Shown piece after piece: positions 6,471 to 45,805 of a stretch of DNA of 64,000 bases (its first letter is position 1; the number at the start of each line of letters is the position of its first letter). This DNA is from Candidatus Babelota bacterium. Its GTDB lineage: Bacteria > Babelota > Babeliae > Babelales > Vermiphilaceae. The position numbers were made by a program, and so were the translations under genes. A model generated the notes under the pieces. It worked only from the letters and a program-made list of their open reading frames with translations, did not search any database and was not told the origin of the DNA. The stretch covers positions 67,145-131,144 of the forward strand of contig JBBDMI010000006.1 of the NCBI GenBank assembly GCA_040878395.1, written 5' to 3'.

Positions 6471-7259
6471 ATGAACATAAAAAAAACCGTATTCATATCG
6501 TTATTATTTATTTTCGCCCAATCACATGCAGTTAAAATAGTCACCACCGGTGCACCAAAATCCGGCATTCAAATACTTGCCAATTGCATAAAAGAGATCA
6601 CCAACATAAAAAAAAGCGCCAATATAAAAGGTGACATGTTGCTCGATGCAAAACAGATGCAACAATATGATTTGATTATAGGAACACCGGTATATAATGA
6701 GCGTAATCTGAATATAATTGCAAAACATAATGCAAAAGTCATATACATCATACGCGATCCACGCGATCAAATTGCCTCTACCGCACAAACCATCTATACT
6801 TATCGCTCTCACATTCCAGCAGCAAAAAATAAAAGTCAAAATCAAATAATAGATGAACTTATCACAAATGGTTCAGCATTTTATGCCTATCAATATCCAT
6901 ACCCTGAGGTTAAACAGGTAAAAGGAATCGTGGATCTTTATAGTTTCTGGCTCCCCTGGATTGAACATCCAAACACAATTGTGGTAACCTTTGAACATCT
7001 CTCGGGCGCATATGGCTCACATGCTCAACAAAAAGAGATCCAACATATCGCCACATTTTTGAATATTCCATGCACGGCACAAAAAGCAACTAAAATTGGC
7101 AACAGCCTGCAAAGTGGCGGCCTGTTTGGACTGTTCAAAAAACAACCGAAAGTTGGCAATTGGAAAAACATGTTTAATGCGCAACACAGAAACAAATGCA
7201 AAAATATTGCAGGTCAATTATTAATTGATCTCGGTTATGAAACAGACGTAAACTGGTAA
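6471..7259 (+). CDS. sulfotransferase (PAPS-dependent fold) with signal peptide
   Basis: 5'-PSB-like TTGAPKSGIQ and 3'-PB-like YIIRDPRDQIAS. C-terminal LLIDLGYE is shared with paralogs at 11129 and 20573. Leader MNIKKTVFISLLFIFAQSHA. Confidence 0.75.
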   Translation: MNIKKTVFISLLFIFAQSHAVKIVTTGAPKSGIQILANCIKEITNIKKSANIKGDMLLDAKQMQQYDLIIGTPVYNERNLNIIAKHNAKVIYIIRDPRDQIASTAQTIYTYRSHIPAAKNKSQNQIIDELITNGSAFYAYQYPYPEVKQVKGIVDLYSFWLPWIEHPNTIVVTFEHLSGAYGSHAQQKEIQHIATFLNIPCTAQKATKIGNSLQSGGLFGLFKKQPKVGNWKNMFNAQHRNKCKNIAGQLLIDLGYETDVNW

Positions 7260-7268
7260 CAGAACATT

Positions 7269-7934
7269 ATGCTGCAATTAAAAACGCATAATCTATTCAA
7301 TCAATTAAAAGAAATAATTCCTGACAATATCACGATCGTTGAAGGCGGTGCCTTTCGCGGCCATGAAACCATTGCAATGGCAAAAGCATGGCCGAACAGC
7401 ACTATCTATACATTCGAGCCGGTTCCGGAATTATACAAAATATTACAAGATAACACCGCACGATTTAGCAACATTCATTGCTTTAATCTCGCATTAAGCA
7501 ATCAAAATGGTACGGCACAATTTTGGCCATCTGAACACCCAAAAAAAGTTGGCGTCCATTCACAAGCCGGCTCACTTCTGGCACCAAAAGAACGTTTAAA
7601 ATGGTCAAACATAAAATTCAAAGACCCTTTTGAAGTGGGCACTATCACCTTGAACAAATGGGCAAAACAACAGAACATTAACAACATAGATTTTCTTTGG
7701 CTTGACCTACAGGGCTATGAACTTCCGGTCATGCAAGCTGCCCCTGAAATTCTACAACAGGTAAAGTATCTCTATACTGAAGTGCATTTCGTTGAAGCTT
7801 ATGCAGACCAAAAACAACACACTGAAGTAATTGATTGGATTGAACAACAAGATTTTACCATGATCGGCAAAGACTACCTCAACACCTCCAGCTGGTTTTT
7901 TGGTAATGTATTATTTGAGCGAAATCAATCATAA
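7269..7934 (+). CDS. FkbM-family methyltransferase
   Basis: VEGGAFRGHETIAMAK, TIYTFEPVPELYKIL, NLALSNQNGTAQFW, IDFLWLDLQGYELPVM. These are FkbM (Methyltransf_21)-like. No leader peptide. Confidence 0.7.
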   Translation: MLQLKTHNLFNQLKEIIPDNITIVEGGAFRGHETIAMAKAWPNSTIYTFEPVPELYKILQDNTARFSNIHCFNLALSNQNGTAQFWPSEHPKKVGVHSQAGSLLAPKERLKWSNIKFKDPFEVGTITLNKWAKQQNINNIDFLWLDLQGYELPVMQAAPEILQQVKYLYTEVHFVEAYADQKQHTEVIDWIEQQDFTMIGKDYLNTSSWFFGNVLFERNQS

Positions 7935-8017
7935 GCTCTTTAATTCGACATTGATTCCAATACGTCTTTCCTAACAAACAAAGCATTGGCAAATCGACCA
8001 CCTAGAGATTGCCATAC

Positions 8018-8512
8018 TTAATGAAAGCCATGCCTTTTCAAAAATGCTTTTAAATAAATATATTTACATGAAGTTTCTCGAATTTTGCAAAAAGAAATTT
8101 CTGTATAAATTGCTTTGACCGTATGCAAAATATCTAAAGATTTTTGCAAAACACAAAGCTCATTACCTTCCATATCAAGCCACATAAAATCAATATGAGA
8201 AATATTATTTTTGGTAGCCCAATCGTTTATAGTGACACACGGAACTTGAATAGGCGTTTTATCAAATGCATGCTCATTCCAATGCAGGACAACCAATAGA
8301 AGAAAAGGTATTTTTCCTGAATAATTTGTAAGTGCATATGGATAACGAATGACATCAGATAAGTTTTCAGTTTCTTTTTCCATTACTTCAAATGAACTGG
8401 GAAGTGGTTCAAAAACATGTACCTCTGCATCAGGAAATATATGTTTTATTCTAATGGTATCTTCACCAAAATACCCTCCCGATTCCAAAACAATAGGAGA
8501 ATACGGCAACAT
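8018..8512 (-). CDS. FkbM-family methyltransferase, short form (possibly truncated)
   Basis: ESGGYFGEDTIRI, VHVFEPLPSSFEVM, YALTNYSGKIPF, IDFMWLDMEGNELCVL. About 55 aa shorter than the paralog at 7269. An in-frame stop lies 9 codons upstream of the ATG. Confidence 0.5.
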   Translation of the reverse strand: MLPYSPIVLESGGYFGEDTIRIKHIFPDAEVHVFEPLPSSFEVMEKETENLSDVIRYPYALTNYSGKIPFLLLVVLHWNEHAFDKTPIQVPCVTINDWATKNNISHIDFMWLDMEGNELCVLQKSLDILHTVKAIYTEISFCKIRETSCKYIYLKAFLKRHGFH

Positions 8513-8727
8513 TTTTTCACATATAAAAACATATTGTCAGGATTCTTAAAAGATGGGTTACATGACACTTAAACAAATAATAAAGCAAATAGCGGTAATG
8601 TTTTAGAATGACCAACATTTAGCTGCATTTTTTCCTTTTTTTAAAATTTTCAATCTTTTAGCCTAAAATAAAACGATGAATTATATACACAAAATATAAC
8701 TAAAACAATAAATTAAACATAATATTC

Positions 8728-9747
8728 TTAATCAACAAACTTTTTAAAATATTCAATCGTTTTCTGTAAACCATTAATCAAATGAACCTGAGGAGACCAA
8801 TTAAGTTCTTTTCTTGCCAATAAAATATCGGGCTTTCTGCGACATGGATCATCTTTTGGCAATCTTAAATATACAATTTGCGAGTCACTCTGTATTGAAT
8901 GTAAAATCATTTCAGCAAGCTGAACTAAATTATATTCATCAGGATTTCCTAAATTAATCGGACCGGTAAAATCTGAAGCTGTATCGAACATCATAGATAT
9001 GAACCCATCAATTAAATCATCAACATAACAAAATGATCGTGTTTGTAATCCACTACCATAAATAGTTAATGGCTCACCTTTTAATGCCTGCATAATAAAA
9101 TTACTCACGACACGCCCATCTCTAGGGTCCATGTTTGGGCCATAGGTATTAAAAATGCGCACAACCTTAATAGGAACATTATATTGTCTATGATAATCAA
9201 AAAATAATGATTCAGCACAACGTTTGCCTTCGTCATAACATGAACGAATGCCGATCGGGTTAACCAAACCACGATATGTTTCAACCTGTGGATGTACTTC
9301 CGGATCACCATAAACTTCACTCGTTGAAGCCTGCATAATTAGAGCATTATATTTTTTTGCTAATTCAAGCATATTTATTGCACCTAACACGCATGTCTTA
9401 GTCGTAAAAATAGGATCTTTTTGATAATGTGGCGGCGATGCCGGACAAGCTAAATTAAAAATGTAATCGACTTGAATATCCAATGGATATGTAATGTCAT
9501 GATGCTTAAATGAAAAACGCTTATCTTCAAATAAGGACTCAATATTATCTAAACGTCCTGTATAAAGATTATCTACTGCAATCACGTTATAATCTAAATC
9601 AAGCAATCTTTTACACAGATGACTTCCTAGAAAGCCGGCACCTCCTGTCACCAACACGTTCTTTTGTTGCTCTTGCGTATAAATACAAGGAAAGCTAATC
9701 ACACTGATCACAAAAAACAACCATTGTTTATAGTTGTTCATTATCAT
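8728..9747 (-). CDS. uxs: UDP-glucuronate decarboxylase (UDP-xylose synthase) with N-terminal membrane anchor/signal peptide
   Basis: VLVTGGAGFLGSHLC, VDNLYTGR, ASTSEVYGDPEVHPQ, NPIGIRSCYDEGKRCAE, RIFNTYGP, DGRVVSNFIMQALKGEPLTIYGSGLQTRSF. This is close to near-identical with human UXS1 motifs. Leader MIMNNYKQWLFFVISVISFPCIY. AGGA lies upstream of the ATG. Confidence 0.85.
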   Translation of the reverse strand: MIMNNYKQWLFFVISVISFPCIYTQEQQKNVLVTGGAGFLGSHLCKRLLDLDYNVIAVDNLYTGRLDNIESLFEDKRFSFKHHDITYPLDIQVDYIFNLACPASPPHYQKDPIFTTKTCVLGAINMLELAKKYNALIMQASTSEVYGDPEVHPQVETYRGLVNPIGIRSCYDEGKRCAESLFFDYHRQYNVPIKVVRIFNTYGPNMDPRDGRVVSNFIMQALKGEPLTIYGSGLQTRSFCYVDDLIDGFISMMFDTASDFTGPINLGNPDEYNLVQLAEMILHSIQSDSQIVYLRLPKDDPCRRKPDILLARKELNWSPQVHLINGLQKTIEYFKKFVD

Positions 9748-9798
9748 TATAAATCCTATATATTTTTAGGAAATAAATAATAACTTTATAAGCTATTT

Positions 9799-10470
9799 TT
9801 ATTTTGTGTTATCAATAAGAAAAATTTGATGCACCGCATTGCCGATTCTAAAATTCATAACTGGTGTTCCATCAATAAAAAACGGTGCTTTTCTTAAATC
9901 GATTTTATGACCACCACCCACTTGAATATCAGGGTTATCACTAGACAAATTATGTGGATACACTTCATTGATAATTAAACAATATTTATATTTCTTTAAT
10001 TGTGGAAGAAAGCGCTTGATATCTTCATTTGGCAAATGTTGAAGCACATGCTTACAAACTAAAAGATCTGCTGACGGCAAATCCATAGTCACTAAATTGC
10101 CAAACTCAAAATGAATATTTGAAGAACCAAATCGCTTTATATTTTTATTAATTACGCTCTCAACAACATCACAGCCAAAGTAATCGATACCATTCCAATC
10201 GATATACCTTGTTGATTCCCAATCACCACAGCCTGCATCCACTACAGATCTGATATTATGTTCACGCATAAATTTTTCTACAAAATGATTATATTCTAAA
10301 CAGTTGGCAAGCAAAGAGCCTCCGCCCGAAAAACCTTCTCCCTGTGCATTTTTGCCCCAGACTGCATTGTGATAAATGTTTGAAAAAACATTTTCATGTC
10401 GATCTGCATTCAAAAGCACGGCTGAACAAATACTGGCAACAAAAATAAGATGAAATTTTACTGTATTCAT
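9799..10470 (-). CDS. class I SAM-dependent methyltransferase with signal peptide
   Basis: VVDAGCGDWESTRYIDW and DLLVCKHVLQHLPNED. Paralog of 2547 and 23485. Start set at the ATG of MNTVKFHLIFVASICSAV, preceded by GGAG 7 nt upstream (the ORF-track start is TTG). Confidence 0.65.
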   Translation of the reverse strand: MNTVKFHLIFVASICSAVLLNADRHENVFSNIYHNAVWGKNAQGEGFSGGGSLLANCLEYNHFVEKFMREHNIRSVVDAGCGDWESTRYIDWNGIDYFGCDVVESVINKNIKRFGSSNIHFEFGNLVTMDLPSADLLVCKHVLQHLPNEDIKRFLPQLKKYKYCLIINEVYPHNLSSDNPDIQVGGGHKIDLRKAPFFIDGTPVMNFRIGNAVHQIFLIDNTK

Positions 10471-10488
10471 TTTTTTCTCCAATATATA

Positions 10489-11076
10489 TTAAGGAACCAC
10501 TGCAACCATTACATTTTGAGGATATTCACCATCATCACCACCAGGAATATAATACACATCGTAATTAGGATTAATCTCTTTAATTTTAGCAATCAAATCT
10601 GCTTGTATTAAACCATCGAAAGCTTCAGTGCCAGCACAATGCATATCATCAATTAAAATAGTATGTGTTTTAATCGGATGCCATGAAATTTGTTCTAGCT
10701 CTTCAATTAATGGACAATTTTTACCACCATCGGCGCGCACTGGCCATACATGCGCATCAAGCCAAAATGTTGCAGGCTTATCCAAATCTTTAATTATATC
10801 CCAAAGGTCTGTCGCTGAACTCCCTTTATATATGGCTACATTTGAATGTGAAGCAAAACGATTTCTTACTTTACGATATGTGCTTTCCTTAAATTCTATA
10901 GACCTAAACTCTTTAAATGCACCAGTTGCTATTGCTTTTTGCAGTCCGTGCCCAGCTGAAGTACCAGTTTCAACAAAATAATAATTTGCATAGGAAGCAA
11001 ACCCTTGTGGACCTATATTTGCTTTACCTGTAGCAAAAACAAGTAACAAAATATATAACATTTTTTGTATATTCAT
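10489..11076 (-). CDS. hypothetical exported protein, possibly methyltransferase-fold
   Basis: 195-aa ORF. Leader MNIQKMLYILLLVFATGKA. YFVETGTSAGHGL, FWLDAHVW and ILIDDMH loosely recall CmcI/FkbM-like MTases. Weak assignment. Confidence 0.3.
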   Translation of the reverse strand: MNIQKMLYILLLVFATGKANIGPQGFASYANYYFVETGTSAGHGLQKAIATGAFKEFRSIEFKESTYRKVRNRFASHSNVAIYKGSSATDLWDIIKDLDKPATFWLDAHVWPVRADGGKNCPLIEELEQISWHPIKTHTILIDDMHCAGTEAFDGLIQADLIAKIKEINPNYDVYYIPGGDDGEYPQNVMVAVVP

Positions 11077-11128
11077 TCTTTCTTCCTTTCAACCAAATCA
11101 AAATTTAAACAACAATAAATTAAGTTAA

Positions 11129-11968
11129 CTAATTTAAATTCCAACTACTATTTTTTTCATATCCCAAATCTATAAGCAAGTCGCCAGCAACATCTTTAAA
11201 CTCCTCAACGTGATGTGGCTTAAAGTATCTCCTCCAAGAGCCTATTCTTTTCCTTCCATTTGGATCAATTTCCCCATGAGTCTGCTCTGATAACTCCAAA
11301 GCTCTTTCGTGGGATAAGTCAATTCCAATATGCCTTGCAATGTTTTTAAGCTCTCTTACTTGCACATCACTTGAGCCTCCACTATAAGCACCCGCTAATT
11401 TTTCATAGGAAGTTACATATACAAAATCATCTCCAAATTTTGTCCATTCAAAATATCTATGATACAAATCATCAATTCCTTTAAAATCTTTCAACTCTGG
11501 ATTGATCCAATGGTTGATGCCCCAATAGAGCTCTGAAGTGTTAAAAATCCACTGCGATAGAGCTTCATCAAAAGATTTTGAAACCAAGCGGGGAAACCAC
11601 TTTTTCCTTTTCACCATATTAATCATAGACACTGCCTGATCGCGAGGGTCCCTAAAAATAAATACTACTTTAAAACCGGCCTTTTTTAACCTTTCGATAT
11701 TTTCTGCTGTGGGCAATGCATGTCCTATTATGGCCTTTTTAGTTTTCACATCTTTATCTGTAATCACAAGATGATCATTTTCTGCATGCTTAAACTTAAT
11801 TTCAGGAGAAATCAAATTTATACAGATTTGCAAAAGCTGTGTTCCACATTTGGGTATAGATGCAATTAAAATGTTACTTGGTACAGCAGATACTTGTAAA
11901 CTTAACAATAACACTCCCAAGTATAATGTTTTATTTTTGATGACCCTACAATAATATTTATTCATCAT
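11129..11968 (-). CDS. sulfotransferase with signal peptide
   Basis: SIPKCGTQLL (5'-PSB-like), FIFRDPRDQAVS (3'-PB-like), C-terminal LLIDLGYE. Start set at MMNKYY..LGVLLLSLQVSA, with GAAGGA upstream. Confidence 0.7.
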   Translation of the reverse strand: MMNKYYCRVIKNKTLYLGVLLLSLQVSAVPSNILIASIPKCGTQLLQICINLISPEIKFKHAENDHLVITDKDVKTKKAIIGHALPTAENIERLKKAGFKVVFIFRDPRDQAVSMINMVKRKKWFPRLVSKSFDEALSQWIFNTSELYWGINHWINPELKDFKGIDDLYHRYFEWTKFGDDFVYVTSYEKLAGAYSGGSSDVQVRELKNIARHIGIDLSHERALELSEQTHGEIDPNGRKRIGSWRRYFKPHHVEEFKDVAGDLLIDLGYEKNSSWNLN

Positions 11969-12000
11969 ACTTTTCCTTCTTGCATAGACCAACATCAATC

Positions 12001-12750
12001 TTATACATTATTTTCAGGTTTACGTGCAAAAGCCCATGCAATGATTGGACAATGCATATGATTAATTCCAGGATTACTTAACATACGATAATCAGGAAAA
12101 CCCTGTGTTTCAAAAGCCTTTTTTAAATATTCAAAATTCCCCCATTGACCAATACTTAACAATTCAAATCCCGCCTCTTGAAGCATCGCTCCAATACCGA
12201 CTGGAGTAAACCCTGTATAAAAATGATAGGGAGTTTCATGCGGAATACTCGTGGTGGGAACGTTAAAATATAAAATCCCACCTGGCTTCATATATTTAAA
12301 TATATTTTTTAAGCAACGAATAGGATCATAGACGTGCTCGAACGTTTGATTCACCATAACAAAATCAAAATCATGCTCATCCAATTCAAACACATGCAAA
12401 TCATATTTTTCTGGATTATGAGAGTAATTTATTACTGAAACATGTTGATGAGATATATAAGCCCATTCAGGATCTTTTCCATTGATAGCCAAACCTTTTA
12501 CCGAAAAACATTGGTTTTCTTGCACAAAACGTTCAAATTCTAAAAGAGCTATTACACGTGGAAAATCTTTGTGCTCCCAACGCCATGCCTTATTATTTTT
12601 TGCTATCGGCAATGGGTCATAACGATATGTGTATTCATGAGTGTAATTCGGCTTTACAAATCTTTCATAAATTATATTGATATCAGCTCGATCCAAATAA
12701 TTTGCGTATGAAAGTAAAGGAGCCAAAACTGATAATATGATTTTTTTCAT
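12001..12750 (-). CDS. SAM-dependent methyltransferase (Methyltransf_11-like) with signal peptide
   Basis: FDFVMVNQTFEHVYDPIRCLKNIFKYMKPGGILYF. Leader MKKIILSVLAPLLSYA. Confidence 0.5.
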   Translation of the reverse strand: MKKIILSVLAPLLSYANYLDRADINIIYERFVKPNYTHEYTYRYDPLPIAKNNKAWRWEHKDFPRVIALLEFERFVQENQCFSVKGLAINGKDPEWAYISHQHVSVINYSHNPEKYDLHVFELDEHDFDFVMVNQTFEHVYDPIRCLKNIFKYMKPGGILYFNVPTTSIPHETPYHFYTGFTPVGIGAMLQEAGFELLSIGQWGNFEYLKKAFETQGFPDYRMLSNPGINHMHCPIIAWAFARKPENNV

Positions 12751-12768
12751 TAGAACAATTTCCTATCT

Positions 12769-13476: not shown

Positions 13477-13565
13477 ATATATTTCCTTTTTCCATTATAT
13501 AAAAACATTAACGATTCAAATATCAAATTTCTTTTCGTACAACTGTCTTTTATCCATCATCACGC

Positions 13566-24165: not shown

Positions 24166-24166
24166 C

Positions 24167-36184: not shown

Positions 36185-36188
36185 AAAA

Positions 36189-37130: not shown

Positions 37131-37139
37131 CTAGTCTCC

Positions 37140-38666: not shown

Positions 38667-38676
38667 TATCATCCTT

Positions 38677-39798
38677 TTACCAATTCATAACAACTGCAGC
38701 TTGCTTCATCACATAAACTTCATGTTGAATCATTTCTTTGACCAACTGTTCAAAATTAACTTTTGGTTCCCAACCAAGCTTTTCTTTCGCTTTTGTTGCA
38801 TCACCAATGAGCAGATCGACTTCAGCCGGTCTGAAATACTGCGGATCAACAAAAACATACGGCGTACCGGTACGTTTATCAAGGCCACGTTCGTTCAATC
38901 CTTCACCTTCCCATACAATTTCGATACCAACATGTGCAAATGCAATTTCAACAAACTCACGCACTGAATGCATTTGTCCGGTTGCAATCACAAAATCTTC
39001 CGGTTCATCTAACTGCAAAATACGCCACATCGCATCGACATATTCACGTGCATGACCCCAATCACGCTTTGCATCAAGATTTCCTAAATAAAGAGCATCT
39101 TGAAATCCGAATTTAATACGCGCAACAGCACGAGTAATTTTTCGTGTTACAAATGTTTCACCCCGCACCGGTGATTCATGATTAAACAAGATGCCATTAC
39201 ATGCATATAAACCGTATGCTTCGCGATAGTTTTTTGTTATCCAAAAACCGTACAGTTTTGCAACACCATATGGTGAGCGAGGATAAAATGGTGTTAATTC
39301 TGTTTGTGGAATTTCTTGCACTTTCCCATACAGTTCACTGGTTGACGCTTGATAAAAACGAGTTTTATTGGTCAACCCTAAAATGCGAATCGCCTCCAAA
39401 ATACGTAAGGTGCCTAATGCATCAACTTGTGCTGTATATTCCGGAAGTTCAAACGAAACGGCAACATGACTTTGAGCAGCTAAATTATAAATTTCATCCG
39501 GCTCAATCTCTTTTATTAATCGGATAATATTACTTGTATCGGTGATATCGCCATAATGTAATTCAAATCTGTTGTCCGGAGATTGATGTTTATCTCTATA
39601 GATGTGATCTAATCGTGGAGTATTGAATGATGAAGCTCGACGTTTGACCCCATGAACTTTATACCCTTTTTGTAATAACAGTTCAACTAAGTATGAACCA
39701 TCTTGCCCGGTAACTCCGATGATCAATGCAACTTTGGCATGTATGGATATAACACCTAGTAACAACAATAAAACTAATTTAAACATACTTTTTTTCAT
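38677..39798 (-). CDS. gmd: GDP-mannose 4,6-dehydratase carrying an N-terminal signal peptide-like extension
   Basis: [76 protein letters not shown]. Homology to E. coli Gmd ([18 protein letters not shown]) starts right after the leader [26 protein letters not shown] lies 5 nt upstream of ATG 39798. Confidence 0.9.
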
Positions 39799-39817
39799 TC
39801 TCATCCTTTTTTTTACC

Positions 39818-39844
39818 TTTGTCATCCTCGAAGAGGATCCAGGC
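39818..39844. repeat. solo arm of the TTTGTCAT-hairpin repeat family
   Basis: tttgtcatcctcgaagaggatccaggc, with hairpin atcctc-gaa-gaggat. It lies ~20 nt upstream of the gmd copy 1 start. Confidence 0.7.
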
Positions 39845-39891: not shown

Positions 39892-40899
39892 CTACTCTGC
39901 TTCAAATATATGAAATCGCTCACACCATTCAAGGGTTTTTTCAATCCCTGCTTTTAAATCGGTTTTTGCTTGCCATCCGAGTTCGGTCATTTTATCAACA
40001 TTGAGCAGCTTACGCGGTGTTCCATCAGGCTTTGATCTGTCCCAAACAATTTCACCTTCAAAACCAACAACCTCTTTTATCATGTTGGTCAACTCGGAAA
40101 TTGAAACATCAACACCGGTACCAATATTGACTATTTCACTGCCATCATATTGATTCATTAAGAAAATACAAGCATCAGCTAAATCTTCAACATACAAAAA
40201 TTCACGAAATGGGGATCCTGTTCCCCAAGCAACAAATTCTTTTTGGCCACGCAACTTTGCAGTATAAACTTTACGCAATAATGCAGGCAAAACATGTGAT
40301 GTTTCTAAATTAAAATTATCATTTGGTCCATATAAATTTGTCGGCATACATGCAATAAAATTTGTTTCATATTGACGATTATAAGCTTGGCACATTTTAA
40401 TACCGGTTATTTTTGCAATTGCATACGGCTCATTTGTCCATTCCAGTTCACTGGTGAGTAAATACTCTTCTTTCATCGGTTGAGGACAATTGCGCGGATA
40501 AATACATGAAGAGCCTAAAAAGAGCATTTTTTTTACTTTAAAATGATACGATGCATGAATAATGTTCGATTGAATCATTACATTGTCATAAATAAATTCT
40601 GCTGGTTTGTCACGATTTGCCAAAATACCACCAACCTTTGCCGCACACATAAATACATAATCCGGACGCTCATGATGAAAAAATTTGTAAACTTCTTGTT
40701 GATTACGCAAATCAAGCTCATGGTGATTACGCGTTATGATATTAGAATAACCTTCATCTTTTAATTGACGTACAATTGCAGAACCAACCAATCCACGATG
40801 ACCTGCAACATAAATTTTTGCTTTTTTATGCATCTCTGCTTGGCACGAAACTGCAGCAGTCAAACCTGCCATTACCATCGACAATCCTCTCTTCATCAT
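39892..40899 (-). CDS. fcl: GDP-L-fucose synthase (GDP-4-keto-6-deoxymannose 3,5-epimerase/4-reductase) with hydrophobic N-terminal extension
   Basis: KIYVAGHRGLVGSAIVRQL, LGSSCIYP, EPYAIAKI, PTNLYGPNDNF, SHVLPALL. GGAGA lies upstream of the MMKRGLSMVMAGLTAAVSCQA start. An internal Met23 (40833, MHKKAKIYVAG) would give a canonical cytosolic form. Confidence 0.85.
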   Translation of the reverse strand: MMKRGLSMVMAGLTAAVSCQAEMHKKAKIYVAGHRGLVGSAIVRQLKDEGYSNIITRNHHELDLRNQQEVYKFFHHERPDYVFMCAAKVGGILANRDKPAEFIYDNVMIQSNIIHASYHFKVKKMLFLGSSCIYPRNCPQPMKEEYLLTSELEWTNEPYAIAKITGIKMCQAYNRQYETNFIACMPTNLYGPNDNFNLETSHVLPALLRKVYTAKLRGQKEFVAWGTGSPFREFLYVEDLADACIFLMNQYDGSEIVNIGTGVDVSISELTNMIKEVVGFEGEIVWDRSKPDGTPRKLLNVDKMTELGWQAKTDLKAGIEKTLEWCERFHIFEAE

Positions 40900-42755: not shown

Positions 42756-44804
42756 TTAAAAGCTGTTCATTTGAGTATGCAATTTCCTACTCGCTTTACT
42801 TTCATGGAAGCAACGATGATAACACACATCATCTTTGTCAAAGATGTATACAAATGCACCATTAAAACCGGTACGAGTTGAAACATATTGATCATCAATA
42901 GCATATGTATAATCATAATACTTATGTTCAATTTTACCTGGAATAACAATTGCATATAAATTTGCCGGAACATATAAACCTATATCATCACACAACTGTT
43001 TATACTTACCGTCAACTGTATCATCTATGCGCACACCATAAGACAAATAATCATCGAGTTGATTACTAAAGAGATGAAACTTATCAGTTGCATCTTTATG
43101 TTTCTCTTTATAATTGTCATGCAAACGAACTGCCTTTGGTGAATTTTCCTTTGACAATGCACGGCGATTATACAAAACAAGTGTCATAGGATAACGACCC
43201 AACTGTCTAAATGCCGCATGTGAATCATCAACTTGCAAGACGCACGTTTCACAATCAAATATATGTGATGGATCCACTTGCAACCATTTTACACTTTTTT
43301 GCTTTACTTCTTTTTTATCATCAGGTAACGATACTATTTCTTTCTTTACACTTGCCGGTGGCGAACTGCTAAAAGCATTTTTTCTAGCTAATTTTTTTGC
43401 TCTTCTTTTAGCTTGTTGCTTTTGTTTTTGCGAAACTTGTTTTTGTTGTTGAACCATCTGACGCTGTAATAGTCGAGCAATTGCTTTATGGTCATTTTGC
43501 TTTGCAATATCAATCGGCTTTTTACCATACTTATCAGCTTGATGCAGATCTGCTTTATAATTAATAAGAACTTCTACCGCATCCAAGCAACCATATTGAG
43601 CTGCAAGAAATAATGGCGACACTCCGTGACTATCACTTATATTGGCCAACTTCTTATCATATGAACATAGTTTATTAATTAAATAAGGACGATCATATTG
43701 CGCAGCTTTATGCAACGCTGTAAAACCTTCATCAACTTCTACTAACTGCGTACGAGCATTTACTTGATATTTTAATAAAAGATCTACTATATGAGGATGC
43801 CCCTCTAAAACAGCAAAATATAATGGCGTACTTCCTTGATGCGCAATAGCATCCTTATTTGCACCATTTCTTAACAAATATGTTGCAATATCAAGATGCC
43901 CCTGTGAACATGCAATATGCAATGGAACAATGCCACTTGAAGTTTTTGCATGTATATCAGCATCTAATGTTATTAATCTTTTTACTGCAGAAAGTTTGCC
44001 GACATGCACCGCTGTATGCAATGACGTAACTCCTGAATCTGAAGCGATATCAACAGGAACGCCTCTTTCTTTTACCAATAATTCGATAATACCTATAAGA
44101 TCGCGTTGAGCCGCAAAATGTAACGCTGTATGCCCTTTAGCATTTTGCGCTTTCAGATCAATGCCAGTAGATACTAAATATTTCGATAATTGTTCAAAAC
44201 TCAATACAATAGCTAAATGCAATAAAGTATTGCCACCAGCTGTTTTGAAATGTAGATTTGCGCCTTTACTCAATAAAAAAGTCACCATTTCAAGTTGATC
44301 ATTAATAACAGCCATGGAAAGTGGTGTGTGCCTATCTATTGATAAAGCTTCCAAATCTATGCCCTGATCTATCAATAATTCTGCAATTTTAATACGACCA
44401 TGAAGCGCCGCCAAATGAAGTGCAGTACAATGCTTTTTGCTCACTAATGTCTTATCAGCACCAGCATCAAGCAAAAGTTTAGTTATATCAAAATAACCTT
44501 CTTGCGCAGCTATCAACAACGGAGTGCAACCATTATGCCGAACATTAATATCAACTCCCGGAAACTTCACAAAAGCTTTTACTGTTTCAACGTCTCCATT
44601 ATATGCTGCTGCAACTAAAACAATTTGTTTATATGGTAATAAATGCTTAAGTGCCTCATTTTTATACTGAGCATTGTTTGTTGCACAAGCTAATTGATAC
44701 ACGCTGCTCCACTTGGCAGCTTCGTTGAAATCTTGATCACTAGCTTTTAAATAGCCAAAAATGGATATCAAACAGATAAACATAGAAAATAATTTACGTT
44801 TCAT
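42756..44804 (-). CDS. ankyrin-repeat protein (~11 repeats) with signal peptide, Lys/Gln-rich linker and unknown ~200-aa C-terminal domain
   Basis: Repeated G-x-TPL-H-x-A...G...hh..Ll..GA motifs (CTPLLIAAQEGYFDITKLLLDAGAD, CTALHLAALHGRIKIAELLIDQGID, and so on). Linker QQQKQVSQKQKQQAKRRAKKLARK. Leader MKRKLFSMFICLISIFGYLKA. Confidence 0.85.
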   Translation of the reverse strand: MKRKLFSMFICLISIFGYLKASDQDFNEAAKWSSVYQLACATNNAQYKNEALKHLLPYKQIVLVAAAYNGDVETVKAFVKFPGVDINVRHNGCTPLLIAAQEGYFDITKLLLDAGADKTLVSKKHCTALHLAALHGRIKIAELLIDQGIDLEALSIDRHTPLSMAVINDQLEMVTFLLSKGANLHFKTAGGNTLLHLAIVLSFEQLSKYLVSTGIDLKAQNAKGHTALHFAAQRDLIGIIELLVKERGVPVDIASDSGVTSLHTAVHVGKLSAVKRLITLDADIHAKTSSGIVPLHIACSQGHLDIATYLLRNGANKDAIAHQGSTPLYFAVLEGHPHIVDLLLKYQVNARTQLVEVDEGFTALHKAAQYDRPYLINKLCSYDKKLANISDSHGVSPLFLAAQYGCLDAVEVLINYKADLHQADKYGKKPIDIAKQNDHKAIARLLQRQMVQQQKQVSQKQKQQAKRRAKKLARKNAFSSSPPASVKKEIVSLPDDKKEVKQKSVKWLQVDPSHIFDCETCVLQVDDSHAAFRQLGRYPMTLVLYNRRALSKENSPKAVRLHDNYKEKHKDATDKFHLFSNQLDDYLSYGVRIDDTVDGKYKQLCDDIGLYVPANLYAIVIPGKIEHKYYDYTYAIDDQYVSTRTGFNGAFVYIFDKDDVCYHRCFHESKASRKLHTQMNSF

Positions 44805-44974
44805 ATTGAACCCCCATTCAATGATATATACCTAAAAAATAGATTTTTTTAGGTGTTTTCCCGATAAAAAACGGCTTTAACCGTACTATAATTATACAAC
44901 TTTATTTCATTTTGTAAATAAAATATTGGATCTTAGCTATAAAATATTAGTCAAAGGAAGAAAATAGCTTGCAT

Positions 44975-45805
44975 TCACCGATTTTCGGCATAGCGTAATT
45001 TTAAATATTTTTGCCAAATATGTGGAAAGACATGAGCAATATATAGATCAAGCTTACGACGTTCATCAGACGAAACTAGCAAAGCATGATGCTTTGTTTT
45101 TTCGCCTTTAGTTAAAGAGGTGTCTTCCTGCTTTTCATACATCGATAAACTTGCTAATTTGTGTTCATCATACTGTGCCATAAAATCGTCTAGATATTCT
45201 GGACTAACATTTAAAAAATTCAGTAATTTTTTAAACACCTGCTCAGGCTGTGTAATCAAATCTTCATAATAAATGAGATGCCTTTTGTCAGGACACCATT
45301 CATCATACAACTTTAAAATATCAAAATAGTTCATGGTTAAGGTATTGTTAAATAGCTCTTTTGCTGTTGGATTATCAAGCGACCTGTTTTTATTTCGCCG
45401 TGAAAGCAGATTAAAAATTCTTGGCAACGCCTCTTTTGGATTACGCACAATCACAATTAAAGTTTCTTGTTGCGAATCGAATGTACCCATCATTTTCATT
45501 TGATCAATATAATGTACTTTCCAAATAGGCAACTTATTATAATCAGTTTGCATATCAAACCAATAACCGAAAGGACAGTTGATTTTTGTTATTTTTTCGG
45601 TACGCATCTCCAACGTCGGACGCTTGGTTAAATATTCAAGACAATAACGCAACCATGTGTTTCCTGAACCGGGAAATGAAAGTAAATAGGTTTTTGGTGC
45701 ATCAGTATAGAACCGAGAAAGATTCATCTGATCAACATCAACCCATTCGCCAACTTTTGCATAAAAAGAACAAAAAATAAGTAGGGTGAATAACATTTTC
45801 TTCAT
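44975..45805 (-). CDS. sulfotransferase-like protein with signal peptide
   Basis: LLSFPGSGNTWLRYCLEYL (P-loop-like PAPS 5'-phosphosulfate site) and VIVRNPKEALPR (3'-PB-like). Leader MKKMLFTLLIFCSFYA. Confidence 0.5.
   Translation of the reverse strand: MKKMLFTLLIFCSFYAKVGEWVDVDQMNLSRFYTDAPKTYLLSFPGSGNTWLRYCLEYLTKRPTLEMRTEKITKINCPFGYWFDMQTDYNKLPIWKVHYIDQMKMMGTFDSQQETLIVIVRNPKEALPRIFNLLSRRNKNRSLDNPTAKELFNNTLTMNYFDILKLYDEWCPDKRHLIYYEDLITQPEQVFKKLLNFLNVSPEYLDDFMAQYDEHKLASLSMYEKQEDTSLTKGEKTKHHALLVSSDERRKLDLYIAHVFPHIWQKYLKLRYAENR

What the first reader, a model, noticed from the sequence alone, without database searches (positions are those of the whole stretch)
6471..45805. Five sulfotransferase-like genes scattered through the island, with no PAPS-synthesis genes in view
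Seen: three close paralogs (6471..7259, 11129..11968, 20573..21373) share PK(S/C)GT, a [IF]IRDPRDQ box and a C-terminal LLIDLGYE. Two divergent members (24263..25045 with CSGTN / VRDPYNW; 44975..45805 with PGSGNTW / VRNPKEA) retain the 5'-PSB and 3'-PB logic. All five have leaders. Established: the PKxGT(T) and RDPxD-like boxes bind the 5'-phosphosulfate and 3'-phosphate of PAPS in cytosolic and Golgi sulfotransferases. Sulfated bacterial glycans are uncommon (Nod factors, mycobacterial sulfolipids, some cyanobacterial and marine EPS). Inference: the product may be multiply sulfated, or several acceptors may be sulfated, possibly host molecules. The predicted export conflicts with the cytosolic location of PAPS.
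Basis: partly seen in the sequence, partly recalled or inferred. Interest (0 to 1): 0.7.

Follow-up and report, generated by a model that had tools for sequence, protein, structure and literature searches.

The report
Leader-tagged sulfotransferases in a Dependentiae glycan island
An intracellular parasite of protists (phylum Dependentiae) carries five sulfotransferase-type genes in a very large sugar-building gene island where nearly every enzyme has an export-type leader; related genomes put the same leader on the enzyme that makes the sulfate donor, which suggests sulfation happens outside the bacterial cytoplasm.

Summary
All five ORFs reach Pfam's Sulfotransfer_1 threshold, though 24263-25045 only barely. 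A high-confidence model of ST3 matches cytosolic SULT structures. The window contains no PAPS-synthesis gene.

Only ST2 and ST3 keep the full catalytic set of their family. ST1 lacks the catalytic His and the P-loop Thr. ST5 has Gly where its family has Arg/Lys in the P-loop. ST4 belongs to a small orphan family.

The source is a Candidatus Dependentiae MAG, an obligate intracellular parasite of protists. The leaders are not specific to the sulfotransferases. About 44 of 52 ORFs in the roughly 55-kb island have one, including GT2, GT6, GT32, GT47-like and methyltransferase genes and one GDP-mannose dehydratase copy.

Homologous islands in other Dependentiae place a bifunctional ATP-sulfurylase/APS-kinase next to the sulfotransferase genes. 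That enzyme carries the same kind of leader in place of its canonical N-terminus. Homologues from Dependentiae and Chlamydiae have leaders; those from free-living phyla do not.

Best reading: these are PAPS-dependent sulfotransferases in a glycan-building toolkit that works outside the bacterial cytoplasm, in the periplasm or the host. This fits the data better than a topological conflict does. Export, the acceptor and this genome's PAPS source are all inferred. I found no published description.

The parts
6471..7259 (+). ST1: SULT-like 'LLIDLGYE'-family sulfotransferase paralogue with leader (aa 1-20). It is divergent at catalytic positions, with PKSGI and Thr in place of the catalytic His.
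   Evidence: Pfam PF00685 at 35.3 bits. No alternative start lies between the leader and the P-loop. The ortholog P0009 shares the same substitutions.
11129..11968 (-). ST2: SULT-like 'LLIDLGYE'-family sulfotransferase with leader. It has PKCGT, GH, RDPRDQAVS and a basic RKR-IGSW motif.
   Evidence: Pfam PF00685 at 40.5 bits.
20573..21373 (+). ST3: SULT-like 'LLIDLGYE'-family sulfotransferase with leader and the full canonical residue set (K29, H75, R98, S106, FRGGQIGDWK).
   Evidence: Pfam at 45.9 bits. PDB hits to SULT2A1 and SULT7A1. AF2 model pLDDT 92.9. Foldseek top hits are SULT2A1 and EST at E 3e-8, TM about 0.63.
24263..25045 (-). ST4: orphan sulfotransferase-fold protein with leader. 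It has GQRCSGTNF, HKHH and VVRDPYNWLKS.
   Evidence: Pfam at 22.1 bits against a threshold of 22. Only 6 homologues were found, and NCBI names it 'hypothetical protein'. The motifs are invariant in the family. AF2 pLDDT 77. The best Foldseek hits are all sulfotransferases but weak: E 7e-4, TM 0.4-0.5.
44975..45805 (-). ST5: StaL/Teg/CurM-like sulfotransferase (PRSGNTW family) with leader. His98 and Arg121 are present, but the basic P-loop residue is replaced by Gly.
   Evidence: Pfam PF00685 at 36.4 bits and PF13469 at 30.4 bits. PDB hits to CurM ST, Teg14 and SULT1A3. The family has 1144 representatives.
38677..39825 (-). GDP-mannose 4,6-dehydratase copy with an N-terminal leader of about 30 aa.
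   Evidence: Pfam GDP_Man_Dehyd, 1.5e-158. It is 71% identical to the leaderless copy at 45899-46996. N-terminus.
45899..46996 (-). GDP-mannose 4,6-dehydratase copy without a leader. It serves as an internal control for the leader-bearing copy.
39892..40899 (-). GDP-fucose-synthase-like NAD epimerase/reductase with leader. A Met lies directly after the leader.
   Evidence: Pfam Epimerase, 2.5e-63.
47409..48566 (-). Mannose-1-phosphate guanylyltransferase (ManC-like). The leader depends on which start codon is used.
   Evidence: Pfam NTP_transferase plus ManC beta-helix.
48514..49890 (-). Polytopic GT-C glycosyltransferase of the PMT_2/ArnT type.
   Evidence: Pfam PMT_2. Nine predicted hydrophobic segments.
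49844..54582 (-). Two leaderless fusion enzymes: an ADH_zinc_N plus GFO/IDH/MocA oxidoreductase, and a UDP-GlcNAc 2-epimerase plus UDP-ManNAc-dehydrogenase-type protein.
16469..19202 (-). Two GT32 (Gly_transf_sug, DXD) paralogues flanking an FkbM methyltransferase. All three have leaders.
21472..23360 (-). A GT32 paralogue and a GT47/exostosin-like paralogue, both with leaders.
25861..32795 (-). Run of leader-bearing GT2 paralogues (26764, 27627, 29598, 30401, 31968), one GT32 (28589) and two families of unknown function (25861; 31343).
32897..35220 (+). A GT-A-like protein of unknown family (32897) and a GT2 fusion protein (33799), both with leaders.
35221..38672 (-). Two GT32 paralogues and a 510-aa GT2 fusion protein, all with leaders.
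109..6097 (-). Left end of the island: a TPR/GT9-like protein, an unknown protein, a SAM methyltransferase, a leaderless methyltransferase-GT2 fusion, and a GT6 with leader.
7269..16334 (.). FkbM methyltransferases (7269+, 8018-, both leaderless), plus genes with leaders: an NAD epimerase (8728-), methyltransferases (9799-, 12001-, 12769-), unknown families (10489-, 13566-), a DUF6492 protein (14545-) and a GT47-like protein (15399-).
42756..44804 (-). 682-aa ankyrin-repeat protein with leader, next to ST5.

Best explanation
The window comes from a Candidatus Dependentiae (TM6) genome, an obligate intracellular parasite of protists. It holds an island of at least 55 kb that builds and decorates glycans. 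The island encodes about 20 Leloir-type glycosyltransferases, about 10 SAM methyltransferases, GDP-mannose/GDP-6-deoxyhexose and UDP-ManNAcA-type sugar-nucleotide enzymes, and five proteins with a sulfotransferase fold.

The five belong to three families:
- ST1-3: a SULT-like family with a C-terminal LLIDLGYE motif.
- ST4: a small orphan family.
- ST5: the PRSGNTW family, which resembles StaL, Teg and CurM.

ST2 and ST3 have every residue that solved SULTs use to bind PAPS and catalyse transfer, so they are most likely active PAPS-dependent O-sulfotransferases. ST1 (no catalytic His) and ST5 (no basic P-loop residue) may be impaired or work differently.

Nearly every enzyme in the island carries a short N-terminal signal resembling a Sec signal peptide. 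I therefore infer that the toolkit is exported across the inner membrane. It would then work in the periplasm or at the cell surface, or in the host compartment after release by type II secretion or vesicles. In those places host ATP, GTP, SAM, sugar nucleotides and PAPS are within reach.

Related Dependentiae islands encode a bifunctional ATP-sulfurylase/APS-kinase next to the sulfotransferase genes. Its canonical N-terminus is replaced by the same kind of leader, so in those genomes PAPS would be made where the sulfotransferases act. This window has no such gene. Here PAPS must come from a gene elsewhere in the genome or from the host.

Shown: family and fold membership, the residue patterns, the island-wide leaders, the split between leader-bearing and leaderless lineages, and the linkage of sulfotransferase genes to PAPS synthase genes in relatives.

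Inferred: actual export, the compartment, the acceptor (probably the island's own glycan), and the PAPS source.
For: - **Family and fold.** Pfam hits for all five. The family profile aligns with SULT7A1 and SULT2A1 at E 6e-18 to 1e-15, matching PKSGTH, THL, RNPKDxxVS and FRKGxxGDW. The ST3 model has pLDDT 92.9 and its top Foldseek hits are SULT2A1 and EST. In 121 family members, K29 is kept in 118, H75 in 115, R98 in 121 and S106 in 120.
- **Organism.** Proteins identical to the window's are named '[Candidatus Dependentiae bacterium]' by NCBI. Related loci lie in Babeliales chromosomes beside SecA and Mur ligase.
- **Leaders in the island.** 44-45 of 52 island ORFs have an N-terminus resembling a signal peptide. 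The two GDP-mannose dehydratase paralogues, 71% identical, differ by having or lacking the leader. ST1 has no alternative start codon downstream of its leader.
- **Control.** Housekeeping proteins in Babeliales loci lack leaders.
- **Lineage split.** Among the genome loci, 15 of 16 homologues labelled Dependentiae, Babeliales or TM6 have a hydrophobic leader, as do 5 of 5 evaluable Chlamydiae homologues. None of about 25 homologues from Chloroflexi, cyanobacteria, Verrucomicrobia, Planctomycetes or Acidobacteria does.
- **PAPS synthase.** A complete ATP-sulfurylase/APS-kinase lies next to the sulfotransferase homologues in L009, L041, L050, L029 and L027. All five begin with hydrophobic leaders. 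Of its 120 closest relatives, 50 have a leader in place of the canonical 'LIEPHGG...' N-terminus, and these fall into pure clades of 23, 9, 9 and 3.
- **Homologous islands.** L009, L029, L037, L041 and L050 share the window's gene families.
- **Literature.** In C. destructans 44% of CDS have predicted signal peptides, and the authors take a Sec system as the likely export route (PMC6561590). TM6 genomes encode type II secretion components (PMC4776705).
Against: - No trained signal-peptide or topology predictor was available. The leaders could be uncleaved membrane anchors.
- Several genes have a Met directly after the leader: ST3 M16, ST4 M20, ST5 M27, the GDP-fucose-synthase-like gene M23 and ManC M38. 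Leaderless cytoplasmic isoforms are therefore possible.
- Leader-type PAPS synthases keep the same five conserved cysteines as cytoplasmic ones and show no disulfide-type adaptation. That argues weakly against an oxidising periplasmic location.
- ATP-, GTP- and NADPH-dependent enzymes working outside a bacterial cytoplasm would be unusual.
- No PAPS synthase, PAPS transporter or PAP phosphatase is in this window. None of the top 120 PAPS-synthase hits lies on a 133,822-bp contig.
- In some Babeliales genomes the sulfotransferase homologues sit beside unknown genes rather than glycosyltransferases. The acceptor need not be a glycan.
- Three of the five proteins deviate at catalytic positions.
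Confidence: 0.55

Rival explanations
1. These are secreted effectors that act on the host. The sulfotransferases, and the GT32/TcdA-like, GT6 and other enzymes, are released into the host cytosol or vacuole by Sec plus type II secretion or by vesicles. There they modify host proteins, glycans or small molecules using the host's own PAPS and sugar nucleotides. No bacterial glycan is built.
For: - The leaders, and the type II secretion components found in TM6 genomes.
- Leader-bearing ankyrin-repeat proteins lie within the island.
- The GT32 paralogues partly match the TcdA/TcdB glucosyltransferase domain at 1.7e-8.
- The window has no PAPS synthase, which fits use of host PAPS.
- The leader-type PAPS synthases show no periplasmic disulfide signature, which fits a reducing destination.
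- Elsewhere the sulfotransferase homologues are not always beside glycosyltransferases.
Against: - The island also encodes leader-bearing GDP-sugar enzymes, a GT-C membrane transferase and many tandem GT2 paralogues. That looks like stepwise assembly of one complex glycan.
- Relatives carry their own leader-tagged PAPS synthase, which would be unnecessary if host PAPS were enough.
- No host target is known.
- This rival overlaps with the best explanation. It differs only in the acceptor.
Confidence: 0.25
2. This is ordinary cytoplasmic glycan synthesis. The hydrophobic N-termini are membrane tethers or are bypassed by internal start codons. The enzymes would sit at the cytoplasmic face of the inner membrane, use cytoplasmic PAPS and sugar nucleotides made by the bacterium, and the product would be exported as in O-antigen or capsule pathways.
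For: - Met codons lie directly after the leader in ST3, ST4, ST5, the GDP-fucose-synthase-like gene and ManC.
- Leaderless sugar-nucleotide enzymes are present in the island (45899, 49844, 52003).
- Cysteine patterns are unchanged in leader-type PAPS synthases.
- This is the normal arrangement for bacterial Leloir glycosyltransferases and PAPS-dependent sulfotransferases such as NodH and Stf0 (established knowledge).
Against: - The N-termini have basic residues before the hydrophobic stretch, so the positive-inside rule puts the catalytic domain outside the cytoplasm.
- The uncharged stretches are mostly 13-20 residues. That is typical of a signal peptide and short for a membrane helix.
- ST1 and the PAPS synthases have no internal start codon.
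- The leader replaces the canonical N-terminus of PAPS synthase and is inherited within clades.
- Free-living homologues lack the leader.
- No Wzx/Wzy, ABC exporter or initiating phosphoglycosyltransferase was found in 64 kb.
Confidence: 0.15
3. Several of the five are not enzymes. ST1, ST5 and possibly ST4 would be pseudo-sulfotransferases, for example proteins that bind PAP(S) or a glycan, or decaying paralogues. Real sulfation capacity would then be lower than 'five sulfotransferases' suggests.
For: - ST1 has Thr at H75 (His in 115 of 121 relatives) and Ile at T32. It also lacks the GGG motif and the Arg of TFRxG.
- ST5 has Gly at the P-loop position where relatives have Arg in 118 and Lys in 6 of 151.
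- ST4 has Cys at the position that aligns by eye with the P-loop Lys of HS-sulfotransferase-type loops. Its Pfam score is borderline and its fold match is weak.
Against: - The ST1 ortholog in a second genome (P0009) keeps an intact ORF, the same substitutions, and all other motifs including R98, S106 and LLIDL-YE. This points to selection rather than decay.
- The ST4 motifs are invariant across six homologues that are 37-49% identical to ST4.
- Sulfotransferases are known that use other bases, or Arg in place of Lys (established knowledge for the PRSGST-type enzymes; not tested here).
Confidence: 0.3

Closest known systems
Eukaryotic cytosolic sulfotransferases (SULT2A1, SULT1E1/EST, SULT7A1; Pfam PF00685)
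   Same: ST1-3 share the fold and, in ST2 and ST3, every PAPS-binding and catalytic element: the PKxGT P-loop, the His base, RxPxDxxxS and the RKG-type GxWK motif.
   Different: - Sequence identity is only 15-21%.
- ST1-3 have a family-specific C-terminal AGQLLIDLGYE motif.
- They are bacterial.
- They carry an export-type leader, whereas SULTs are cytosolic.
- The acceptor is unknown.
- ST1 lacks the His.
Bacterial natural-product sulfotransferases StaL, Teg12/Teg14 and the CurM ST domain
   Same: ST5 matches these by sequence (CurM ST 1.6e-5, Teg14 7e-4). It shares the P(R/K)xGNTW loop, the KxH histidine and the RNP(K/R) motif.
   Different: - ST5 has Gly at the basic P-loop position.
- It has a leader.
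- It sits in a glycan island rather than a polyketide or glycopeptide cluster.
NodH with NodPQ (rhizobial Nod-factor sulfation); RaxST with RaxPQ; mycobacterial Stf0/Stf3 with CysNC
   Same: In these systems a PAPS-dependent sulfotransferase is genetically linked to a dedicated PAPS synthase and modifies a glycoconjugate or peptide. Homologous Dependentiae islands show the same linkage of sulfotransferase and ATP-sulfurylase/APS-kinase genes. The named systems themselves are recalled from established knowledge.
   Different: Those systems are cytoplasmic and leaderless. Here both the sulfotransferases and, in relatives, the PAPS synthase carry leaders. This window has no PAPS synthase. The number of sulfotransferases and glycosyltransferases is far larger.
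Golgi sulfotransferases and glycosyltransferases of eukaryotes (type II anchored, luminal, fed by PAPS and nucleotide-sugar transporters)
   Same: The concept is the same: Leloir glycosyltransferases and PAPS-dependent sulfotransferases sit behind an N-terminal hydrophobic signal, in a compartment separate from where the donors are normally made. GT6, GT32 and GT47-like families are represented.
   Different: There is no evidence of eukaryotic origin, since the nearest relatives are bacterial. No transporter was found. In relatives the enzymes that make the donors are themselves leader-tagged.
Chlamydia glycogen-metabolism enzymes secreted into the inclusion lumen
   Same: An intracellular bacterium relocates a whole carbohydrate pathway outside its own cytoplasm and feeds it with host-derived sugar nucleotides.
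   Different: That pathway uses type III secretion signals and makes glycogen. Here the signals are Sec-type, the phylum is different, the chemistry is heteroglycan synthesis with sulfation and methylation, and nothing has been shown experimentally.
Periplasmic aryl-sulfate sulfotransferase (ASST/AssT)
   Same: It is the known bacterial example of sulfotransfer in the periplasm.
   Different: By established knowledge, ASST does not use PAPS and has a beta-propeller fold. The window's proteins have the PAPS-type P-loop fold.

Membership tests
PAPS-dependent sulfotransferase, Sulfotransfer_1 (PF00685) | Profile HMM score above the curated threshold | tested here: met
   35.3, 40.5, 45.9, 22.1 and 36.4 bits against a threshold of 22. 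ST4 passes by 0.1 bit.
PAPS-dependent sulfotransferase, Sulfotransfer_1 (PF00685) | 5'-phosphosulfate-binding P-loop with a basic residue and Thr/Ser (PKxGT[T]) | tested here: inconclusive
   - Met in ST2 (PKCGT) and ST3 (PKSGT).
- ST1 has the Lys, but Ile replaces Thr (PKSGI).
- ST5 has Gly where relatives have Arg or Lys (124 of 151).
- ST4 reads RCSGTN.

PAPS-dependent sulfotransferase, Sulfotransfer_1 (PF00685) | Catalytic histidine after strand 3 | tested here: inconclusive
   - Met in ST2, ST3 (H75, which aligns to the THL of SULT7A1) and ST5 (H98; His in 146 of 151 relatives).
- Not met in ST1, which has Thr (His in 115 of 121).
- ST4 has an invariant HKHH, but the model is poor in that region (pLDDT below 50 for residues 67-78).
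PAPS-dependent sulfotransferase, Sulfotransfer_1 (PF00685) | 3'-phosphate-binding motif (Rx(P)xxxxxS) and C-terminal RKG / GxxGxWK motif | tested here: met
   - ST1-3 have RDPRDQxxS. In the family the Arg is kept in 121 of 121 and the Ser in 120 of 121.
- This aligns to RNPRDVLVS and LLRKGVSGDWKNHF of SULT2A1.
- ST4 has RDPYNWLKS.
- ST5 has the Arg, but Arg replaces the Ser, as in most of its own family.
PAPS-dependent sulfotransferase, Sulfotransfer_1 (PF00685) | Sulfotransferase alpha/beta fold | tested here: met
   - ST3: pLDDT 92.9. The top 50 Foldseek PDB hits are all SULTs, at E around 1e-7 and TM about 0.6.
- ST4: pLDDT 77. The best hits are sulfotransferases (SULT1A3, TPST1/2, HS3OST) but weak, at E 7e-4 and TM 0.4-0.5.
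- ST1, ST2 and ST5 were not modelled.
PAPS-dependent sulfotransferase, Sulfotransfer_1 (PF00685) | PAPS binding and sulfate transfer to an acceptor | not testable with these tools
   This needs recombinant protein. The only indirect support is gene linkage to PAPS synthase in homologous islands.
Sec (type I) signal-peptide proteins | Basic n-region, h-region of 7-15 residues, polar c-region with small residues at -3 and -1 | tested here: inconclusive
   - By heuristic, all five sulfotransferases and 44-45 of 52 island ORFs have the n- and h-regions.
- AxA-like cleavage sites are clear in ST1 (SHA|V) and ST2 (VSA|V). They are ambiguous in ST3 and ST5.
- Housekeeping controls are negative.
- SignalP and Phobius were not available.
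Gene clusters pairing a sulfotransferase with PAPS synthase (NodH/NodPQ-type) | ATP sulfurylase and APS kinase encoded with the sulfotransferase | tested here: not met
   None occurs in the 64-kb window. The feature is met in the homologous islands L009, L041, L050, L029 and L027.
Wzx/Wzy- or ABC-dependent surface-polysaccharide loci | Initiating phosphoglycosyltransferase, flippase or ABC exporter, polymerase or ligase | tested here: not met
   No such Pfam families appear among the ORFs of 100 aa or more. The only polytopic membrane protein is a PMT_2-type GT-C. These genes could lie outside the window.

The most novel reading that the evidence does not exclude
Dependentiae, and apparently environmental Chlamydiae and some other low-GC MAG lineages, have moved a complete donor-dependent glycan factory out of the bacterial cytoplasm. 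It would sit in the periplasm or in the host compartment and would comprise PAPS synthase, PAPS-dependent sulfotransferases, SAM methyltransferases, Leloir glycosyltransferases and even GDP-sugar-converting enzymes. Each protein would be sent there by a Sec-type leader, and the pathway would run directly on host ATP, GTP, SAM and sugar phosphates. The result would be a bacterial analogue of a Golgi, made possible by the energy-parasite lifestyle.
Probability: 0.35. Interest if true: 0.85.

Novelty: new variant of a known kind. Interest (0 to 1): 0.62.

Why it matters
PAPS-dependent sulfation and Leloir glycosylation are textbook cytoplasmic processes in bacteria, because the donors exist only there. 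Suppose an obligate intracellular phylum really exports the whole toolkit, including the enzyme that makes PAPS. That would be a new way for parasites to spend host energy and metabolites on their own surface or matrix, or to rewrite host glycoconjugates.

It would also explain part of the unusually large predicted secretome of Dependentiae, 44% of CDS in C. destructans (PMC6561590).

It would give concrete candidate genes for sulfated or methylated glycans made by protist-associated bacteria. [quoted passage not shown] 2000, listed in the references of PMC2229832). This finding shows that relatives in the environmental Chlamydiae do carry leader-tagged sulfotransferases and PAPS synthase.

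If the leaders prove to be simple membrane tethers, the locus is still one of the densest glycosyltransferase, methyltransferase and sulfotransferase islands in a reduced genome. In that case it is otherwise ordinary.

Tried and rejected
- **NCBIfam.** The scan of the five sulfotransferases gave no informative hit.
- **ST4 against PDB sequences.** No hit at E up to 1. Only the fold search pointed to sulfotransferases, and weakly.
- **PAPS synthase of the window's own genome.** I queried with a Dependentiae PAPS synthase. None of the top 120 hits lies on a 133,822-bp contig, so this is inconclusive. The exact-match look-up returned only a 40.8-kb Logan contig, not the NCBI contig.
- **Syntenic relative L083.** It extends past the left edge of the window and shows Fic, GT2, a nucleotidyltransferase and Asn synthase, but no PAPS synthase.
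- **Cysteine content.** Leader-type and canonical PAPS synthases show no difference: mean 6.2 against 6.3, with the same five conserved positions. This test does not separate a periplasmic location from a reducing one.
- **Neighbours of sulfotransferase homologues in two Babeliales loci.** The unknown proteins of about 280-345 aa there are not homologous to any window ORF.
- **Relaxed Pfam search on ten unannotated window ORFs.** The only result was a sub-threshold GT2 match for 32897-33787.
- **tRNA and Rfam scans of the window.** Both found nothing.
- **Literature.** Searches combining Dependentiae or environmental Chlamydiae with sulfotransferase, glycosyltransferase or signal peptide found nothing relevant.
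- **Giant-virus origin, rejected.** Ankyrins, an ATP-dependent ligase, glycosyltransferase islands and low GC raised the possibility. Against it are the Legionella_OMP-type porin, a RelE-type toxin-antitoxin pair, the NCBI assignment, and homologous loci inside Babeliales chromosomes beside SecA and Mur ligase.
- **Recent eukaryotic origin of the leaders as Golgi anchors, rejected.** Methyltransferases, GDP-mannose dehydratase and PAPS synthase also carry leaders, and the nearest sulfotransferase relatives are bacterial.

Full report

The five ORFs are present and translate as described. All reach Pfam's curated threshold of 22 bits for Sulfotransfer_1:

| Gene | Coordinates | Sulfotransfer_1 score (bits) |
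|---|---|---|
| ST1 | 6471-7259 | 35.3 |
| ST2 | 11129-11968 | 40.5 |
| ST3 | 20573-21373 | 45.9 |
| ST4 | 24263-25045 | 22.1 (marginal) |
| ST5 | 44975-45805 | 36.4 (also Sulfotransfer_3, 30.4 bits) |

NCBIfam adds nothing.

Some details need correcting. ST1 reads PKSGIQ rather than PKSGT. ST2 reads FIFRDPRDQ. ST1-3 are only 31-39% identical to each other. Each of the five starts with a basic residue or two followed by an uncharged hydrophobic stretch.

No PAPS-synthesis gene is in the 64 kb. The Pfam scans covered at least one member of every ORF family of 100 aa or more. A six-frame scan for ATP-sulfurylase, APS-kinase and CysD signature motifs also found none.

**2. What organism and what locus?**

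Proteins identical to ST3, ST1 and ST4 are deposited as '[Candidatus Dependentiae bacterium]' on a 133,822-bp MAG contig. The same sequence also occurs in a Logan assembly. GC content is 30-39% throughout, with no compositional break.

The right flank carries a Legionella_OMP-type porin, an ATP-dependent DNA ligase, a WD40 protein and a GH81 fragment, and a RelE/ParE-like toxin-antitoxin pair.

From position 109 to about 54,600 the window is one very large glycan island:
- Seven GT2 paralogues, two of them fused to a second domain. That domain is also found as two stand-alone paralogues (25861, 32897).
- Six GT32 (DXD) paralogues.
- Two GT47/exostosin-like proteins.
- One GT6.
- One methyltransferase-GT2 fusion.
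- One GT-C (PMT_2).
- About ten SAM- or FkbM-type methyltransferases.
- Two GDP-mannose 4,6-dehydratases.
- A GDP-fucose-synthase-like reductase, a ManC, another NAD epimerase, and two fusion oxidoreductases.
- Ankyrin-repeat proteins.
- Several families with no Pfam match.

I found no flippase, polymerase, ABC exporter or initiating phosphoglycosyltransferase.

**3. Are the five really sulfotransferases?**

*ST1-3.* They belong to a family with a conserved C-terminal AGQLLIDLGYE motif. A profile of this family hits solved cytosolic SULTs at E 6e-18 (SULT7A1) and 1e-15 (SULT2A1). The alignments pair:
- isiPKsGthLL with VSYPKSGTHWL (the 5'-PSB loop);
- llasHliy with AIPTHLNY (the catalytic His);
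- fiiRDPRDqivS with YIVRNPKDTAVS (the 3'-PB motif);
- tfRkGkiGsWkkhF with VFRKGVVGDWINYF.

The AlphaFold model of ST3 has pLDDT 92.9. Its first 50 Foldseek PDB hits are all SULT structures, at E around 1e-7 and TM about 0.6.

Across 121 family members, the Lys is kept in 118, the His in 115, the Arg in 121 and the Ser in 120. ST2 and ST3 have all of them. ST1 has Thr at the His position and Ile at the P-loop Thr, and it lacks the GGG and the TFR-Arg. Its ortholog P0009 in a second genome shares these changes. So ST1 is a conserved but catalytically atypical member.

*ST5.* It belongs to a large family of 1144 representatives at E up to 1e-3 that has a PRSGNTW loop. Its closest solved relatives are CurM ST, Teg14 and SULT1A3. 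ST5 keeps the His (146 of 151) and the Arg (147 of 151). It has Gly where 118 relatives have Arg and 6 have Lys.

*ST4.* Only six homologues are detectable, all unannotated. They share invariant G(Q/E)RCSGTNF, HKH and RDPYxWLxS motifs. The model is moderate (pLDDT 77). Its best structural matches are sulfotransferases but weak, at E 7e-4 and TM 0.4-0.5.

Verdict: two canonical enzymes, two family members with an unusual active site, and one probable but weakly supported member.

**4. The leaders are an island-wide feature.**

By a simple heuristic, 50 of 60 window ORFs are flagged. The heuristic asks for an uncharged stretch of at least 9 residues with mean Kyte-Doolittle hydropathy of at least 1.9, starting within the first 35 residues. 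I removed one Rossmann-strand false positive (52003) and the polytopic GT-C (48514), and allowed one borderline case (23485). That leaves 44-45 of 52 island ORFs with an N-terminus resembling a signal peptide. They include glycosyltransferases, methyltransferases, the NAD epimerase 8728, the GDP-fucose-synthase-like enzyme and one GDP-mannose dehydratase.

The two dehydratase copies are 71% identical and differ by a leader of about 30 residues. This looks like one copy for each of two locations.

The uncharged stretches are mostly 13-20 residues and follow Lys or Arg. That is typical of Sec signal peptides rather than membrane helices.

ST1 has no alternative start codon between the leader and the P-loop. 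Several other genes do have a Met just after the leader: ST3 M16, ST4 M20, ST5 M27, the GDP-fucose-synthase-like gene M23 and ManC M38. These may be relics of ancestral starts, or they may allow two isoforms.

Housekeeping proteins in Babeliales loci lack such N-termini. I checked an RRM protein, RuvX, a Mur ligase, a nitroreductase, FabD and ACP.

This fits published work. In Chromulinavorax destructans 44% of CDS and 78% of ankyrin proteins have predicted signal peptides, and the authors take a Sec system as the likely export route (PMC6561590). TM6 genomes encode type II secretion components, and Babeliales lack most LPS genes (PMC4776705).

**5. Evidence from relatives.**

A scan of one genome per species returned 76 loci encoding LLIDLGYE-family homologues. 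I scored the region upstream of the P-loop for a hydrophobic leader:

| Lineage label | Loci with a hydrophobic leader |
|---|---|
| Dependentiae / Babeliales / TM6 | 15 of 16 |
| Chlamydiae (Parachlamydiaceae, Waddliaceae and others) | 5 of 5 evaluable |
| Low-GC 'Pseudomonadota' MAGs | 4 of 4 evaluable |
| Chloroflexi, cyanobacteria, Verrucomicrobia, Planctomycetes, Acidobacteria, Marinimicrobia | 0 of about 25 |

The homologues without a leader have Arg-rich, non-hydrophobic N-termini instead. The ST5 family shows the same two forms: leaderless proteins of about 220 aa and leader-bearing proteins of about 260-290 aa.

A motif scan of the flanks found a complete bifunctional ATP-sulfurylase/APS-kinase next to the sulfotransferase homologues in several loci:
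- L009, a Dependentiae single-cell genome;
- L041, Babeliales;
- L050, TM6 UASB124;
- L029/L046 and L027;
- three Chloroflexi loci.

L009, L029, L037, L041 and L050 are islands homologous to the window's. They share its GT2, GT6, GT32 and GT47-like genes, methyltransferases, an epimerase and several unknown families.

These PAPS synthases in the Dependentiae and related low-GC loci begin with hydrophobic leaders directly before the conserved 'LT(K/Q)RQLCDLEL' segment. An example is MRQFKNIVLLFFIFIFYGNSFG|LSVKLTKRQLCDLE. Free-living Rhodothermales and Bacteroidetes enzymes of about 60% identity begin with the canonical 'LIEPHGGxLxxL...' segment instead.

Of the 120 closest relatives, 50 are leader-type, including one from a Parachlamydia MAG, and 42 are canonical. 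The leader-type proteins fall into pure neighbour-joining clades of 23, 9, 9 and 3. The leader is therefore inherited and is not a gene-calling accident.

**6. Most likely mechanism.**

ST2 and ST3 are PAPS-dependent O-sulfotransferases, and perhaps the others are too. They are part of a leader-tagged toolkit that builds and decorates a glycan or glycoconjugate outside the bacterial cytoplasm.

The bacterium is an energy parasite inside a eukaryotic cell. Host ATP must cross its outer membrane and periplasm to reach the ATP/ADP translocases that these bacteria rely on. Released proteins would sit among host metabolites. Enzymes that depend on ATP, GTP, SAM, sugar nucleotides or PAPS could therefore work there. 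These steps are inference.

In relatives the PAPS-making enzyme is co-targeted with the sulfotransferases. For this genome the PAPS source is unresolved. None of the 120 best PAPS-synthase hits lies on a 133,822-bp contig. A syntenic relative shows no PAPS synthase just left of the island.

Several things count against this reading:
- I had no trained signal-peptide predictor.
- Internal Met codons could give leaderless isoforms.
- Cysteine patterns are unchanged in the leader-type PAPS synthases.
- In some Babeliales genomes the sulfotransferase homologues are not next to glycosyltransferases, so the acceptor is open.

**7. Comparison with known systems and novelty.**

In fold and chemistry these are members of known sulfotransferase families. 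The NCBI record already names ST1 and ST3 'sulfotransferase domain-containing protein'.

Three things differ from every characterised bacterial sulfation system (NodH/NodPQ, RaxST/RaxPQ, Stf0, StaL/Teg, CurM):
- the systematic export-type leader;
- its extension to PAPS synthase and GDP-sugar enzymes;
- its restriction to host-associated lineages.

The nearest concepts are the eukaryotic Golgi and the secreted glycogen pathway of Chlamydia (recalled from the literature). Neither is a homologous system. Full-text searches found nothing linking Dependentiae or environmental Chlamydiae with sulfotransferases or with such islands.

I rate it a new variant of a known kind. It is of moderate to high interest as a testable hypothesis, and the main claim about topology is not yet proven.

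Noticed in passing
window 38677-39825 (-) and 45899-46996 (-): Two GDP-mannose 4,6-dehydratase paralogues are 71% identical. One has a basic-hydrophobic leader of about 30 aa and the other has none. This looks like one copy for each of two compartments.
   Followed up: partly
L009:8302-9981, L041:2390-4081, L050:8039-9712 (-), L029:407-2083, L027:13280-14980; proteins P0127-P0246: Bifunctional ATP-sulfurylase/APS-kinase (PAPS synthase) in Dependentiae, a Parachlamydia MAG and many unnamed metagenomic sequences has a hydrophobic leader in place of the canonical 'LIEPHGG...' N-terminal segment. This applies to 50 of the 120 closest relatives, and they fall into pure clades.
   Followed up: yes
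window: ST3 codon 16, ST4 codon 20, ST5 codon 27, 39892-40899 codon 23, 47409-48566 codon 38: An in-frame ATG sits directly after the leader in several island genes. In ManC and the GDP-fucose-synthase-like gene it is at the position where leaderless homologues start. These could be relics of ancestral start codons, or a way to make both exported and cytoplasmic isoforms.
   Followed up: no
window 5264-6097 (-): A GT6-family glycosyltransferase (Pfam Glyco_transf_6, 1.6e-42; the family of the ABO and alpha-1,3-Gal transferases) with a leader, in the same island as a GDP-fucose-type pathway. A homologue is present in the L009 island. The glycan might resemble a blood-group structure, but this is speculative.
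   Followed up: no
window 16469-17464, 18249-19202, 21472-22407, 28589-29524, 35221-36144, 36189-37130 (all -): Six GT32 (Gly_transf_sug, DXD) paralogues with leaders. The best one also matches the catalytic core of the TcdA/TcdB glucosyltransferase domain (1.7e-8). These could modify host proteins.
   Followed up: no
window 25861-26739 (-), 32897-33787 (+), C-terminal halves of 33799-35220 (+) and 37140-38672 (-); also 19492-20481 (+), 13566-14603 (-), 10489-11076 (-), 25204-25833 / 31343-31930 (-), 1331-2521 (-): Several leader-bearing protein families have no Pfam match. One of them gives a sub-threshold GT2 hit (32897; 19.3 bits against a cutoff of 23.3). Most of them (all but the 25204/31343 family) recur in the homologous Dependentiae islands L009, L029, L037, L041 and L050. 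They are probably undescribed glycan-modifying enzymes.
   Followed up: partly
window 57774-58427 (-): Small overlapping ORFs resemble a type II toxin-antitoxin module: a RelE/ParE-like 94-aa ORF at 57947-58231 with a 69-aa upstream partner at 58218-58427, and a second antitoxin-like 56-aa ORF at 57774-57944. I judged this from the sequences only and did not scan them.
   Followed up: no
window 49844-52006 (-) and 52003-54582 (-): Two leaderless fusion enzymes: a zinc-ADH-type domain fused to a GFO/IDH/MocA oxidoreductase (720 aa), and a UDP-GlcNAc 2-epimerase fused to a UDP-ManNAc/UDP-Glc-dehydrogenase-type enzyme (859 aa). Together they suggest cytoplasmic synthesis of a UDP-ManNAcA-type precursor.
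   Followed up: no
L003:3485-14014 and L005:3208-10828 (Babeliales genomes): In other Babeliales the LLIDLGYE-type sulfotransferases occur in two or three copies. They sit beside runs of leader-bearing proteins of 280-345 aa with no Pfam match and no similarity to window ORFs, and beside 830-aa beta-helix proteins. The sulfotransferase family is therefore not tied to one island type. Leader-bearing DIT1_PvcA-like enzymes are also present in L005.
   Followed up: partly
window 56844-57779 (+), 61565-62590 (-), 62617-63975 (-): The right flank outside the island has an ATP-dependent DNA ligase (leaderless), a Legionella_OMP-family porin with a signal peptide, and a GH81-like protein.
   Followed up: no
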